Source: Candidatus Lloydbacteria bacterium RIFCSPHIGHO2_02_FULL_50_18 (lineage in GTDB: Bacteria > Patescibacteriota > Minisyncoccia > Phycocordibacterales > UBA6899). Taken from it: a stretch of DNA of 17,815 nt. The translations under genes were made by a program, and so were the position numbers. A model generated the notes under the pieces. It had not been told where the DNA came from, ran no database searches, and saw only the letters and a list, made by a program, of their open reading frames with translations. The DNA lies in NCBI GenBank assembly GCA_001821395.1, contig MHLM01000011.1, forward strand, positions 1 through 17,815, written 5' to 3'. This document shows, one piece after another, positions 12,857 to 14,731 of this stretch. Position 1 is the first letter of the stretch, and each line of letters begins with the position of its first letter.

Positions 12857-13528
12857 ATGCTTATGCGTATCAATAAATACCTTGCAGATGTTACGGGCAT
12901 GTCCCGTCGTGCAGCGGACCGAGAGATCGAGGACGGGAAAGTGCGGCTGAACGGAAAACGGGCAGTTCTTGGCGACCAGGTCGCGAAGGGCGATAAGGTC
13001 ACATTGAGAGGAAAGGAAATAGCAGAGAAGGTCGAGAAGGAGCTTACGACCATCATGTTAAATAAGCCTGTTGGATACATCACCTCGCGTAAGCAGGATG
13101 AGACGAAGGCGCCGACCGTCATGGAACTTCTGCCGGAAGAATTGCAACATCTGAAGCCGATCGGTCGTCTTGATAAAGAAAGCTCCGGGCTGCTTCTTCT
13201 TACCGATGACGGTGATCTCTTGTACAAGAGCACTCATCCAAAATTTGAGATCGAAAAAGAGTACGTTGTTGAATTTGAAGAGCGCATGACCCCGCTCGTC
13301 ATCGGACAGTGGAAAAAGGGAATGAAATTACCGGACGGTATCGCGCGTGCGGATAGTATGGTTCACATGGAGGGGACGACGTATCGCATCGTGCTGCATC
13401 AGGGGAAGACGCGTCAGATTCGTCGCATGGCGGGGAAGACAGGGAATGCCGTCGTTTCTCTCCTGCGTGTCCGCTCAGGAAAAAACGAACTCGGCAATCT
13501 CAAGGTCGGGATGTGGAAAAAAGTTTAA
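12857..13528 (+). CDS. rRNA pseudouridine synthase, RsuA/RluB family (S4 domain plus catalytic domain); the start may be the second ATG at 12863
   Basis: The S4-like N-terminus MRINKYLAD...GKVRLNGK is followed by the RsuA-family motif KPIGRLDKESSGLLLLTDDGDL containing the catalytic Asp. Confidence 0.8.
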   Translation: MLMRINKYLADVTGMSRRAADREIEDGKVRLNGKRAVLGDQVAKGDKVTLRGKEIAEKVEKELTTIMLNKPVGYITSRKQDETKAPTVMELLPEELQHLKPIGRLDKESSGLLLLTDDGDLLYKSTHPKFEIEKEYVVEFEERMTPLVIGQWKKGMKLPDGIARADSMVHMEGTTYRIVLHQGKTRQIRRMAGKTGNAVVSLLRVRSGKNELGNLKVGMWKKV

Positions 13529-13567
13529 CGTACACGCAGGACGTTCATGTGAAACGGAGTTTTTTTG

Positions 13568-13589
13568 AAAAAGGTGTCAGGTACCTTTT
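13568..13589 (+). repeat. REP-like hairpin element, copy 1; also positioned as a terminator for the upstream gene
   Basis: AAAAAGGT / GTCAGGT / ACCTTTT. It is the exact reverse complement of 14282-14303. Confidence 0.65.
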
Positions 13590-13619
13590 ATTGTATATTT
13601 TTTTTGTTATACTTTATTT

Positions 13620-14294
13620 ATGCCCCGCGCCCCACGTGTTGATGTTGGTAATGAAGTGTATCACGTGATCAATCGTGCCAATAATCGTGCACAGATTTTT
13701 AATAATGAAAAAGAGTATCAACACTTCGAGAGACTATTGAAAGAAGCAAAAGTCCACGTGCCCATGCGAATTCTTGCATATGTGCTCATGCCAAATCATT
13801 GGCACCTAGTTCTTCATCCGGAGAATGATGGAGATTTAGCGTTATTTATGCAGTGGCTTACTTTGACGCATGCGCAGCAATATCGTGCAAAAACAAAAAC
13901 GATCGGTCATGGTCATCTCTATCAGGGAAGATACAAATCTTTTCTTGTGGAAAAAGATAACTACCTTATCCAATTGCTGCGTTATGTTGAGCGGAATCCT
14001 CATCGCGCCAAGCTCGTGAAGCGGGCAGAAGACTGGAGGTGGGGAAGTGCGTGGCGCAGATATCATGGAACAAGCAAAGAGCAGCAGCTTCTCCATGTTC
14101 CACCAATTGACCTCCCGCGAGGATACCGTGCGTGGCTTAATGAAAAAGAAGAAGTAGAACAATTGGTCACAATTCGCAATTCAGTAAATAGGGGGCGACC
14201 ACTTGGGACTGAAGGTTGGACTGGAAAGAAAATAACACAGTTTGGATTGGCGTTGACGATGCGCTCTCGCGGGAGACCAAAAAAAGGTACCTGA
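13620..14294 (+). CDS. HUH-Y1 tyrosine transposase of the IS200/IS605 TnpA / REP-associated tyrosine transposase (RAYT) type, with a roughly 70-aa C-terminal extension
   Basis: The HUH motif is MPNHWHLVL. The catalytic Tyr sits in HLYQGRYKSF. Other family blocks are YHVINRANNR and RYVERNPHRAKLV. The gene is flanked by inverted 22-nt hairpin repeats. Confidence 0.8.
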   Translation: MPRAPRVDVGNEVYHVINRANNRAQIFNNEKEYQHFERLLKEAKVHVPMRILAYVLMPNHWHLVLHPENDGDLALFMQWLTLTHAQQYRAKTKTIGHGHLYQGRYKSFLVEKDNYLIQLLRYVERNPHRAKLVKRAEDWRWGSAWRRYHGTSKEQQLLHVPPIDLPRGYRAWLNEKEEVEQLVTIRNSVNRGRPLGTEGWTGKKITQFGLALTMRSRGRPKKGT

Positions 14295-14303
14295 CACCTT
14301 TTT
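14282..14303 (+). repeat. REP-like hairpin element, copy 2 (inverted); it overlaps the transposase stop codon and serves as its terminator
   Basis: AAAAGGT / ACCTGAC / ACCTTTTT is the exact reverse complement of 13568-13589. A T-run follows. Confidence 0.65.
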
Positions 14304-14365
14304 TGTGTTTGTCTTTTATGGGCAAAATGGTAGTTTTGACGTAGTCGTGTACCAAGGAGAGTTAA

Positions 14366-14731
14366 ATGAGTGTCCCAATTTTGTGCTCCCACTGCGGAGA
14401 CGTCACCGGCGAGCTTGATGGAGATGTGTTGTTTGCATCGGGAGGAAATGTCGGAGCATATAACAGCGACTGCCCCGGAAAAGGCAAGCACTCAGTGCGG
14501 GAGAGTAAGTGCTGCTTCTTTGGTCTTTTGAATAAGGTGACCGTGAAGTATCATTCCGCAGGGAGTTCAACGTGGTATGAGTATGTCGGACCCCAATCTC
14601 GATTTTTGTTGTGGCTTGCGATTATGCGCACGGGTGGTGTTGTTGTGAACAACTGGTGGGTGTGGTGGGATTTGAAAACTGGTTTTTTTGGCGAGGGCCT
14701 CAAGGAATTGCTCAAAAAGAAAACTGCATGA
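14366..14731 (+). CDS. Hypothetical small Cys-rich protein (121 aa) with a Trp-rich C-terminus
   Basis: A strong Shine-Dalgarno AAGGAG lies 7 nt upstream. Sequence features include CSHCGD...DCPGKGKH...KCCFF and NNWWVWWDLKTGFFG. A canonical terminator follows. Confidence 0.6.
   Translation: MSVPILCSHCGDVTGELDGDVLFASGGNVGAYNSDCPGKGKHSVRESKCCFFGLLNKVTVKYHSAGSSTWYEYVGPQSRFLLWLAIMRTGGVVVNNWWVWWDLKTGFFGEGLKELLKKKTA

What the first reader, a model, noticed from the sequence alone, without database searches (positions are those of the whole stretch)
13568..14303. HUH tyrosine transposase (RAYT or IS200-like TnpA) bracketed by inverted copies of a 22-nt hairpin (REP-like), forming a minimal 736-bp unit
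The 22-mer AAAAAGGTGTCAGGTACCTTTT at 13568-13589 reappears as its exact reverse complement at 14282-14303. Each copy folds as a 7-8 bp hairpin, and the downstream copy overlaps the transposase stop codon. REP-associated tyrosine transposases are characteristically flanked by inverted REP hairpins, whereas classical IS200/IS605 ends are not inverted repeats of each other. The protein carries the HUH motif (NHWH) and the catalytic Tyr (YQGRYKS) plus an atypical C-terminal extension of about 70 aa. The hairpins also serve as terminators for rsuA and for the transposase, which is the kind of domesticated role proposed for REPs. If this is a CPR-type genome, a RAYT/REP system would be noteworthy.
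Basis: partly seen in the sequence, partly recalled or inferred. Interest (0 to 1): 0.6.

Follow-up and report, generated by a model that had tools for sequence, protein, structure and literature searches.

The report
Hairpin-ended RAYT-class transposase unit in CPR
A 736-bp insertion in a Candidatus Lloydbacteria genome carries one single-strand-DNA (HUH/tyrosine) transposase gene, closest to the REP-associated kind, capped at both ends by its own 22-nt hairpin; it is a real and tidy example of a type of element already described in other bacteria.

Summary

Homologues in CPR, Planctomycetota, Acidobacteriota and proteobacterial plasmids have the same layout. Their terminal inverted repeats share the core GG[G/T]G[T/A]CAG, which matches the published TIRYT/TIRtron motif, and the stems show compensatory changes.

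The three closest syntenic relatives (RsuA 79-88% identical) have rsuA next to the small ORF with no unit between them. Other genomes carry near-identical duplicate units. The whole unit therefore appears to move.

The same hairpin also occurs alone, in pairs and in arrays, mostly between genes. One Planctomycetota genome has at least 37 copies.

The hairpin copy number in the source genome could not be measured, because its contig is only 18 kb.

Verdict: new member of a known kind.

The parts
13568..13589 (+). Left terminal hairpin (TIR-L), AAAAAGGTGTCAGGTACCTTTT. The stem is AAAAGGT(G)/(T)ACCTTTT and the loop carries the conserved GTCAG. It ends 30 nt upstream of the ATG.
   Evidence: Exact inverted partner of 14282-14303. 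Folds as a DNA hairpin. A hairpin sits in the same position in homologues from several phyla. Stem covariation is shown.
13620..14294 (+). Gene for a 224-aa RAYT-class Y1 HUH transposase; the coordinates include the stop codon.
13794..13805 (+). HUH motif N59-H60-W61-H62.
   Evidence: Invariant in 62 homologues. Aligns with the HMH of E. coli TnpA-REP.
13983..14000 (+). Catalytic-tyrosine motif Y122-V-E-R-N-P, the class-2 'Y---NP' signature.
   Evidence: Y122 and N126 are invariant. The motif aligns with YIYINP of 4er8. The motif definition is in PMC6006769, Table 1.
14001..14270 (+). Conserved, mostly helical C-terminal region (residues 128-217) that includes W139-x-W141-G-S143. No Pfam domain was found in the part scanned (residues 127-224).
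   Evidence: Conservation is shown. Predicted helices have pLDDT above 90. Pfam found nothing even at E<=10. Plasmid homologues align across it at about 30% identity.
14271..14291 (+). Basic tail G218-R-P-K-K-G-T, which resembles an AT-hook. The codons for K-K-G-T are the A-tract and stem of the right hairpin.
   Evidence: G218, R219 and P220 are invariant or nearly so. This tail has low pLDDT. The overlap is read directly from the sequence. The AT-hook reading is my inference.
14282..14303 (-). Right terminal hairpin (TIR-R), the exact reverse complement of TIR-L. The gene's TGA stop (14292-14294) lies in its loop.
   Evidence: In most relatives the right TIR starts about 9 nt before the end of the coding match.
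13568..14311 (.). Segment present here but absent at the syntenic rsuA/small-ORF junction of the closest relatives. This is the inserted unit, with boundaries good to about 10 nt.
   Evidence: Empty sites in L221 (RsuA 88% identical), L214-216 (79%) and L220 (80%). Junction alignment.

Best explanation
The 736-bp segment is a self-contained 'TIRtron'-type element. It consists of a single gene for a RAYT-class (TnpA-Y1 class 2, TIRYT-like) HUH/tyrosine single-strand-DNA transposase, bounded by two inverted copies of its cognate 21-22-nt hairpin.

**Proposed mechanism (inferred by analogy, not shown here).** When DNA is single-stranded, for example at a replication fork, each terminal repeat folds into a short stem-loop that presents the conserved GTCAG loop. 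The enzyme binds the hairpin. It cleaves next to it using Y122 and the HUH metal site, and rejoins the ends. This mobilises either the whole unit or hairpins alone. Because the stop codon lies inside the right hairpin, the ORF stays complete wherever the unit lands. The invariant GRPKK tail may contact the A/T tract at the base of the stem.

**What the comparisons show.**
- The unit was inserted between rsuA and a small Cys-rich ORF in this Lloydbacteria lineage.
- It is now a single copy, found in the same context in every assembly that carries it.
- In other genomes the same hairpin has multiplied on its own as a REP-like repeat.
For: **Enzyme class**
- Pfam Y1_Tnp matches.
- The NCBIfam RAYT model scores 73.5 bits and the IS200 model 21 bits.
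- The protein has the Y---NP motif.

**Architecture conserved across phyla**
- All 9 full-length homologues in the genome loci have a (+) hairpin upstream and a (-) hairpin over the stop codon, spaced 699-753 nt. They come from Acidobacteriota, Saccharibacteria, Patescibacteria and Pirellulaceae.
- Of 80 metagenomic relatives, 65 have the core GG[GT]G[TA]CAG upstream and 70 have its complement at the 3' end.
- 60 of 65 testable loci have an inverted-repeat score of 13 or more.

**The hairpin is a selected structure**
- There are 36 double-sided compensatory cells, against 17.9 +/- 2.8 in shuffles (0 of 500 shuffles reach the observed value). 79% of cells are paired, against 33-65% when the partner is slid.
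- Protein similarity tracks TIR similarity (Mantel r -0.38, 0 of 2000 permutations).

**The whole unit moves**
- Three syntenic relatives have an empty site.
- No neighbouring genes are shared across the relatives' loci.
- Two near-identical units with different flanks occur in an Acidobacteriota contig. Two more occur on a P. aeruginosa plasmid with 32-nt TIRs starting AAAGGGGACAG.

**Solo hairpins proliferate**
- The exact 19-mer was found in at least 119 genome stretches. At least 37 copies lie in 137 kb of one Planctomycetota MAG.
- Doublets and arrays are common.
- Hairpins are depleted in long ORFs: 39% fall inside one, against an 84% background.
- In CPR loci most copies lie between long ORFs.

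**Published precedent**
- TIRYT/TIRtron elements have the TIR motif GGGG[AT][CG]A[CG] (PMC3733652 section 16; PMC6006769).
Against: - No activity has been shown. The cleavage sites, the strand used and the role of the tail are all inferred.
- In the source organism the unit is single-copy and sits in the same place in all 19 contigs read that carry the protein. It may therefore be immobile now.
- The window has no extra hairpins, and the whole genome could not be scanned.
- The junction with the empty site is not a clean cut. About 20 nt in L214 are unalignable, so a deletion in the relatives is not strictly excluded.
- The protein falls just below the NCBIfam RAYT cut-off.
- It lacks the HTH Pfam hits reported for subclass 2.1.
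- The correlation between protein and TIR similarity is also expected from simple co-inheritance of linked DNA.
Confidence: 0.75

Rival explanations
1. This is a domesticated RAYT/REP system. On this view the gene is a vertically inherited, single-copy host gene. Its job is to spread or maintain REP hairpins around the genome. The two flanking hairpins are simply the nearest REPs.
For: - The closest solved structure and the best model hit are RAYT.
- The gene is single-copy and in a fixed context across samples.
- Identical hairpins are dispersed, extragenic and multi-copy in other genomes, including CPR ones.
Against: - The closest syntenic relatives have empty sites.
- Relatives sit in unrelated contexts.
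- Whole-unit duplicates occur on chromosomes and plasmids.
- There is no GTAG/CGTC foot.
- The 17.8-kb window has only the two terminal copies.
Confidence: 0.17
2. This is an ordinary IS200 (IS200/IS605 family, tnpA only), or a fragment of one.
For: - Pfam PF01797 is named 'Transposase IS200 like'.
- The unit is small and appears mobile.
Against: - The IS200 NCBIfam model scores 21 bits against a cut-off of 55.
- The motifs are NHWH and Y---NP, not DH[VI]H and Y---Q.
- The ends are identical inverted repeats rather than distinct sub-terminal LE/RE hairpins.
- No tnpB is nearby.
- The protein is 224 aa with a conserved extra domain, whereas the median for IS200 TnpA is about 152 aa.
Confidence: 0.03
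3. The hairpins are merely intrinsic terminators or chance palindromes with no link to the gene.
For: Both hairpins are followed by T-runs and lie at gene ends.
Against: - Chance expectation for the second copy is zero.
- The same hairpin flanks homologues in several phyla.
- The terminator scan does not call it, because the stem has only 2 G-C pairs.
- RNA folding is no better than that of shuffled sequence.
Confidence: 0.01

Closest known systems
TIRtrons / TIRYT (TIR-associated tyrosine transposases; Di Nocera, De Gregorio & Rocco 2013, PMC3733652). Quentin et al. 2018 (PMC6006769) assign most of these to TnpA-Y1 subclass 2.1, which is Bertels' RAYT Group 1.
   Same: - A RAYT-like gene is flanked by terminal inverted repeats, and the 3' TIR overlaps the end of the gene.
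- The TIR core matches GGGG[AT][CG]A[CG]. The window has GGTGTCAG (7 of 8 positions); relatives have GGGGTCAG or GGGGACAG.
- The protein is about 225-238 aa, with a conserved C-terminal region and a W-x-W-[GS]-S motif.
- TIR copies also occur as singles, dimers and clusters.
- Family members are found on plasmids.
- Proteobacterial members (NHVH/YIELNP/WSS) align full-length with the window protein.
   Different: - The HUH motif is NHWH. Tryptophan is not among the residues listed for class 2.
- The other signatures are YQ and YVERNP.
- No Bac_DnaA_C/HTH_23/HTH_28 hit appears in the C-terminus.
- The TIR is short (21-22 nt) and almost wholly self-complementary, so it is itself a REP-sized hairpin.
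- The hosts are CPR, Planctomycetota and Acidobacteriota.
- Quentin et al. reported no REP-like structures near subclass 2.1 genes.
REPtron: E. coli TnpA-REP (RAYT, PDB 4er8) with flanking REP/BIME.
   Same: - HUH plus a single Tyr in Y---NP.
- The gene is bracketed by inverted hairpins that also exist elsewhere as dispersed extragenic palindromes and doublets.
   Different: - There is no GTAG foot and no bulged imperfect palindrome.
- The whole unit shows insertion polymorphism and duplication.
- The protein has about 80 extra C-terminal residues.
- It scores below the NCBIfam equivalog cut-off.
IS200 / IS608 / ISDra2 (IS200/IS605 family).
   Same: - Same Y1 HUH fold.
- Hairpin-dependent chemistry on single-stranded DNA is expected.
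- No target-site duplication is evident around the duplicated units.
   Different: - Different catalytic signature: Y---Q in IS200, Y---NP here.
- The LE and RE hairpins of IS200/IS605 are sub-terminal and are not inverted copies of each other.
- tnpB is often present in those elements and is absent here.

Membership tests
RAYT / TnpA-REP (TnpA-Y1 class 2) | HUH motif plus a single catalytic Tyr in a Y---NP motif | tested here: met
   NHWH at residues 59-62 and Y122-VERNP, both invariant in 62 homologues. They align with HMH and YIYINP of 4er8. The signature definition is in PMC6006769 Table 1.
RAYT / TnpA-REP (TnpA-Y1 class 2) | Closer in sequence and fold to TnpA-REP than to IS200 TnpA | tested here: met
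   [not shown]
RAYT / TnpA-REP (TnpA-Y1 class 2) | Passes the curated NCBIfam equivalog cut-off (NF047646, 80 bits) | tested here: not met
   The score is 73.5 bits. Homologues from other phyla score 49-77 bits.
RAYT / TnpA-REP (TnpA-Y1 class 2) | Gene flanked by cognate palindromes in inverted orientation (REPtron layout) | tested here: met
   The layout is conserved in relatives.
RAYT / TnpA-REP (TnpA-Y1 class 2) | Cognate REP at high copy number in the same genome | not testable with these tools
   The source contig is only 18-21 kb in every assembly. The window has 2 copies. Other genomes have many.
RAYT / TnpA-REP (TnpA-Y1 class 2) | Conserved GTAG (or CGTC) foot next to the palindrome | tested here: not met
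   No conserved tetranucleotide lies outside the 21-22-nt hairpin in 203 copies. The window flank is TTTTTTG.
RAYT / TnpA-REP (TnpA-Y1 class 2) | Housekeeping-like behaviour: single copy and vertically inherited | tested here: inconclusive
   The gene is in a single context across 19 contigs. However, it is absent from the syntenic site in the three closest relatives, and the relatives' contexts are unrelated.
TIRYT / TIRtron (subclass 2.1-like) | RAYT-like gene bounded by terminal inverted repeats | tested here: met
   The inverted repeat is 26 nt at 96% complementarity. 60 of 65 relatives have inverted repeats scoring 13 or more.
TIRYT / TIRtron (subclass 2.1-like) | TIR contains GGGG[AT][CG]A[CG] | tested here: met
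   The window has GGTGTCAG, matching 7 of 8 positions. Relatives have GGGGTCAG or GGGGACAG. Plasmid homologues have AAAGGGGACAG and AAAAGGGGTCAG. The motif is defined in PMC3733652 and PMC6006769.
TIRYT / TIRtron (subclass 2.1-like) | Long protein (median 238 aa) with a conserved C-terminal domain and a serine motif | tested here: met
   The protein is 224 aa, with W139-x-W141-G-S143 and a conserved C-terminus. It aligns full-length with 230-235-aa plasmid proteins that carry WSS.
TIRYT / TIRtron (subclass 2.1-like) | C-terminal similarity to HTH domains (Bac_DnaA_C, HTH_23, HTH_28) | tested here: not met
   [not shown]
TIRYT / TIRtron (subclass 2.1-like) | Placement in subclass 2.1 by the authors' HMMs or tree | not testable with these tools
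Only the motifs could be compared.
IS200/IS605 | D-H-[VI]-H and Y---Q motifs, and passing NF033573 (55 bits) | tested here: not met
   The motifs are NHWH and YVERNP. The score is 21.1 bits.
IS200/IS605 | Distinct sub-terminal LE/RE hairpins, often with tnpB | tested here: not met
   The ends are identical inverted copies. The neighbours are rsuA and a small host ORF that is also present at the empty sites.

The most novel reading that the evidence does not exclude
This NHWH/GRPKK family may be an actively transposing RAYT-class element, a living intermediate between IS200-type insertion sequences and domesticated RAYT/REP systems. On this reading, its 21-nt hairpin has stayed identical across CPR, Planctomycetota and Acidobacteriota while the proteins diverged to 42-54% identity. 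It seeds REP-like hairpin populations in some hosts. It reads the A/T tract of its own hairpin with an AT-hook-like tail whose codons are themselves part of the right terminal repeat. It would also be the first RAYT/REP-type system characterised in CPR bacteria.
Probability: 0.3. Interest if true: 0.6.

Novelty: new member of a known kind. Interest (0 to 1): 0.38.

Why it matters
The element shows that RAYT-class Y1 enzymes with terminal hairpin repeats are common in the streamlined genomes of CPR bacteria. More than 7,700 homologues were retrieved, and the best 120 are 56-100% identical over the full length. Here such a unit behaves as an insertion, absent from the same site in the closest relatives.

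The family offers an unusually clean model pair for asking how RAYT-type enzymes recognise and move hairpins, and how REP populations arise from a transposase-bearing parent element. It has one small gene, one 21-nt hairpin and natural covariation in the stem.

For annotation, the two hairpins and the stop codon inside the right one define the element's borders precisely. Units annotated simply as 'transposase' can therefore be delimited automatically.

Tried and rejected
- **Copy number in the source genome.** Walking outward from the first and last genes of the window showed that the contig ends at 18-21 kb in every assembly. No count was possible.
- **Rfam.** No family matches the hairpins, even at E<=5. 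The whole-window scan found only rRNA and tRNA.
- **Terminator idea.** The consensus scan did not call either hairpin, and RNA folding was no better than that of shuffled sequence. Rejected as unsupported.
- **Promoter in or near the left hairpin.** One 9-of-12 match to the sigma-70 consensus overlaps it, but the number of matches is at chance level. Not pursued.
- **Phage route for spread.** There was no protein match in 50,697 phage records. IMG/VR gave one 57-residue fragment. The 19-mer has no match in viral contigs.
- **Literature.** No held paper prints the 13-mer core. The searches listed no paper that links RAYT/TIRYT with CPR. The supplement of Di Nocera 2013 holds no matching TIR strings as text.
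- **A remnant hairpin in the empty site of L214.** Only a 6-mer (AAGGTG) matches, which I judged to be chance.
Full report
**1. The observation**

The 22-mer AAAAAGGTGTCAGGTACCTTTT lies at 13568-13589. Its exact reverse complement lies at 14282-14303. At up to three mismatches these are the only copies in the 17,815-nt window, and dinucleotide-preserving shuffles give none. The inverted repeat extends to 26 nt at 96% complementarity.

As single-stranded DNA each copy forms a stem of 7-8 bp on either strand. The energies are -4.0 to -4.7 kcal/mol for the core, with z-scores of about -2.5 to -3.1.

Between the two copies lies one ORF, 13620-14294, of 224 aa. Its TGA stop (14292-14294) sits in the loop of the right hairpin. 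Its last codons, K-K-G-T, are the A-tract and stem of that hairpin. The unit measures 736 bp.

**2. The protein**

The protein matches Pfam Y1_Tnp (64.5 bits, residues 13-126). In NCBIfam it scores 73.5 bits on the REP-associated tyrosine transposase model, just under the 80-bit cut-off. It scores only 21.1 bits on the IS200 model, whose cut-off is 55.

A profile built from 22 homologues finds E. coli TnpA-REP (PDB 4er8) as the best solved relative, ahead of the ISDra2 transposase.

The HUH motif is N59-H-W-H62. The catalytic-tyrosine motif is Y122-VERNP, which aligns with YIYINP of 4er8. It is the 'Y---NP' signature that defines class 2 of the TnpA-Y1 family in Quentin et al. 2018 (PMC6006769).

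Residues 128-217 form a confidently predicted, mostly helical region with invariant W139, W141 and S143. Residues 127-224 gave no Pfam match. The last ten residues are poorly ordered and carry the conserved G-R-P core (G218 and R219 invariant, P220 nearly so) followed by K-K.

**3. Source and abundance**

The window is identical to NCBI contig MHLI01000021.1 of GCA_001818945.1. The protein is named in NCBI as a hypothetical protein of Candidatus Lloydbacteria RIFCSPHIGHO2_01_FULL, so this is a CPR genome.

The family is large. 7,793 proteins passed E<=1e-5 among the 8,000 candidates scored. The best 120 are 56-100% identical over the full length. Those that carry names come from Taylorbacteria, Kaiserbacteria, Parcubacteria and Minisyncoccia.

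**4. The hairpin elsewhere**

- Most stretches come from Planctomycetota: Pirellulaceae, Rhodopirellula baltica, Phycisphaerales.
- Others come from Acidobacteriota and from many CPR lineages: Saccharibacteria, Adlerbacteria, Wolfebacteria, Uhrbacteria, Azambacteria and Paceibacteria.

Across 203 copies the conserved unit is just RR-AAAAGGTGTCAGGTACCTTTT-YY, with nothing conserved outside it.

Copies occur singly and as doublets in both inverted arrangements. (-)(+) pairs are spaced 22-29 nt and (+)(-) pairs 28-52 nt. Direct arrays also occur (examples).

Hairpins avoid long ORFs. 39% fall inside a stop-free frame of at least 150 codons, against 84% of all bases. In CPR loci most copies lie between long ORFs.

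Within the truncated sample, one Planctomycetota MAG has 37 copies in 137 kb and one Pirellulaceae MAG has 22 in 64 kb. So in other genomes this sequence behaves like a REP.

**5. The unit elsewhere**

tblastn of the window protein against those genome loci found nine full-length homologues at 39-54% identity. They are in Acidobacteriota, Saccharibacteria, a Patescibacteria MAG and Pirellulaceae. Each has a (+) hairpin upstream of the start and a (-) hairpin over the stop, 699-753 nt apart.

For 80 metagenomic relatives (49-68% identity):
- 65 have the core GG[GT]G[TA]CAG within 140 nt upstream.
- 70 have its complement around the stop.
- 60 of 65 testable loci have a terminal inverted repeat scoring 13 or more, typically 17-33 nt. 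The right arm usually starts 9 nt before the end of the coding match.

The stems vary with compensation. Examples are AAAAGGT/ACCTTTT, TAATGGT/ACCATTA, AAAAGGG/CCCTTTT and AAAAGGTGT/ACACCTTTT.

On an ungapped alignment of 59 left repeats, an 8-bp helix is 79% paired, against 33-65% when the partner is slid. It has 36 cells changed on both sides, against 17.9 +/- 2.8 in shuffles (0 of 500). One caveat applies: the structure was derived from one of these sequences.

Protein similarity correlates with repeat similarity (Mantel r -0.38, 0 of 2000 permutations). This fits a cognate pair, but it is also expected from linkage.

**6. Mobility**

The exact protein occurs in 19 contigs from several samples, always in the same context: Hydrolase_4, RsuA, unit, 121-aa ORF, GlyA, FolD, PAP2.

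The nearest relatives with the same gene order lack the unit. In each of them rsuA is followed directly by the small ORF.
- GCA_043719805.1, RsuA 88% identical.
- Parcubacteria GW2011_GWA2_47_7, 79% identical.
- A Logan contig, 80% identical.

In the best-aligning case, both flanks of the window unit align to the 62-nt intergenic region of L214. This places the extra DNA at about 13568-14311.

None of the 80 relatives' loci carries any of the window's neighbouring genes.

Two near-identical units with unrelated flanks sit 1.7 kb apart in an Acidobacteriota contig. Their identity begins and ends at the hairpins.

On a P. aeruginosa plasmid, two near-identical copies of a 230-aa full-length homologue (31% identical, with NHVH, YIELNP, WSS and a ...GRPRLE* tail) are each bounded by 32-nt repeats starting AAAGGGGACAG. 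A Rhodospirillum rubrum plasmid homologue has the repeat AAAAGGGGTCAGACCCC.

No target-site duplication is evident, as expected for Y1 enzymes.

The protein and the hairpin are essentially absent from phage collections.

**7. Comparison with known systems**

Di Nocera et al. 2013 (PMC3733652) described RAYT-like genes flanked by terminal inverted repeats rather than GTAG-tagged REPs. They called the elements TIRtrons and the proteins TIRYTs. They noted a shared TIR motif GGGGWSAS, TIRs that are partly or wholly self-complementary, 3' TIRs that overlap the gene, and moderately abundant TIR families arranged as singles, dimers or clusters.

Quentin et al. 2018 (PMC6006769) assign most TIRYTs to subclass 2.1 (Bertels' Group 1). 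That subclass has a median length of 238 aa, signatures NHVH/NH[YF]H, W[EQ]/FQ and YIELNP/Y[IV]HLNP, an SS motif and a C-terminal HTH-like domain. They report no REP-like structures near these genes.

The window element fits this kind in its layout, TIR motif, protein length, serine motif and full-length homology to NHVH/YIELNP/WSS proteins.

It differs in four ways:
- Its signature is NHWH, YQ and YVERNP.
- It has no detectable HTH domain.
- Its repeat is short and almost fully palindromic.
- Its hosts are different.

It is not a canonical REPtron. It has no GTAG foot, it falls below the equivalog cut-off, and it shows insertion polymorphism. It is not IS200 either.

I found no held paper that prints the hairpin core or that discusses RAYT/TIRYT in CPR. 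That library covers open-access papers only.

**8. Mechanism (inference)**

E. coli TnpA-REP is reported to process folded single-stranded REPs in vitro, in a way that depends on REP structure and an adjacent motif (PMC8266576 abstract). By analogy with that enzyme and with IS608, I propose the following.
- The enzyme binds the folded terminal hairpins, with the invariant GTCAG loop as the specificity element.
- It cleaves at the hairpin base through Y122 and the HUH site, and rejoins the ends.
- This moves either the full unit or hairpin-only derivatives.

Because the two ends are inverted copies, the GTCAG-bearing strand differs between them. This differs from IS608, where both ends are processed on the same strand.

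The GRPKK tail resembles an AT-hook. The outer stem is an almost invariant A/T tract, which suggests a contact between them. This is untested.

**9. Verdict**

The element is best filed as a new member of the TIRtron/TIRYT kind of RAYT-class elements, here as a lineage-specific insertion in a CPR genome.

Interest is moderate. The cross-phylum identity of the hairpin, the stem covariation and the clean empty sites make it a good model, but the kind is already described.

Noticed in passing
window 1-1873: The window starts inside a 23S rRNA gene. Positions 1-1255 cover only 890 model positions, so about 365 nt are extra. A tRNA-Arg(TCG) follows at 1606-1678, then 5S rRNA at 1762-1873. An ENA assembly of the same region (L209) differs here and carries two LAGLIDADG ORFs upstream. 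This suggests an intron/homing-endonuclease polymorphism in the rRNA operon.
   Followed up: partly
window 14366-14731: A 121-aa Cys-rich ORF (MSVPILCSHCGD...) has no Pfam match. A small ORF also sits between rsuA and glyA in the relatives that lack the transposase unit (137 aa in L214). The downstream ORF in L220 starts with a similar sequence, and in L221 a 92-aa ORF holds that position. It is therefore a host gene of unknown function, not part of the element.
   Followed up: partly
L058 6131-6285: A Saccharibacteria contig has five perfect hairpin copies in direct tandem, spaced 26-41 nt, immediately downstream of its transposase gene. This is a hairpin array at one end of the unit only.
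   Followed up: no
L147 (left repeat about 51 nt upstream of the gene): The terminal repeat has an internal duplication of its first half (AGAAATGGGGTCAGAAATGGGGTCAGCCACCAT). The same duplication is mirrored at the other end.
   Followed up: no
L212 (P. aeruginosa plasmid NZ_CP116719.1, 11239-17922): The record has three matches to the window protein. The two shown in L212 are near-identical full-length genes, interspersed with genes annotated as a toxin glutamine deamidase domain protein, a DNA/RNA non-specific endonuclease and small hypothetical proteins. Together these may form a polymorphic-toxin cassette array.
   Followed up: no
window 13461-13473 and 13529-13541: A 13-nt inverted repeat at 92% complementarity (TCCTGCGTGTCCG / CGTACACGCAGGA) spans the 3' end of rsuA, with 55 nt between its arms. 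It is unrelated to the element's hairpins and gave only sub-threshold Rfam noise.
   Followed up: no
L107 2046-2438 and 3762-4154: A Saccharibacteria contig carries a truncated copy of the family, with hairpins inside and beside it. It also has two repeated segments with identical scores that encode a more distant Y1-like protein, about 31% identical to the window protein.
   Followed up: no
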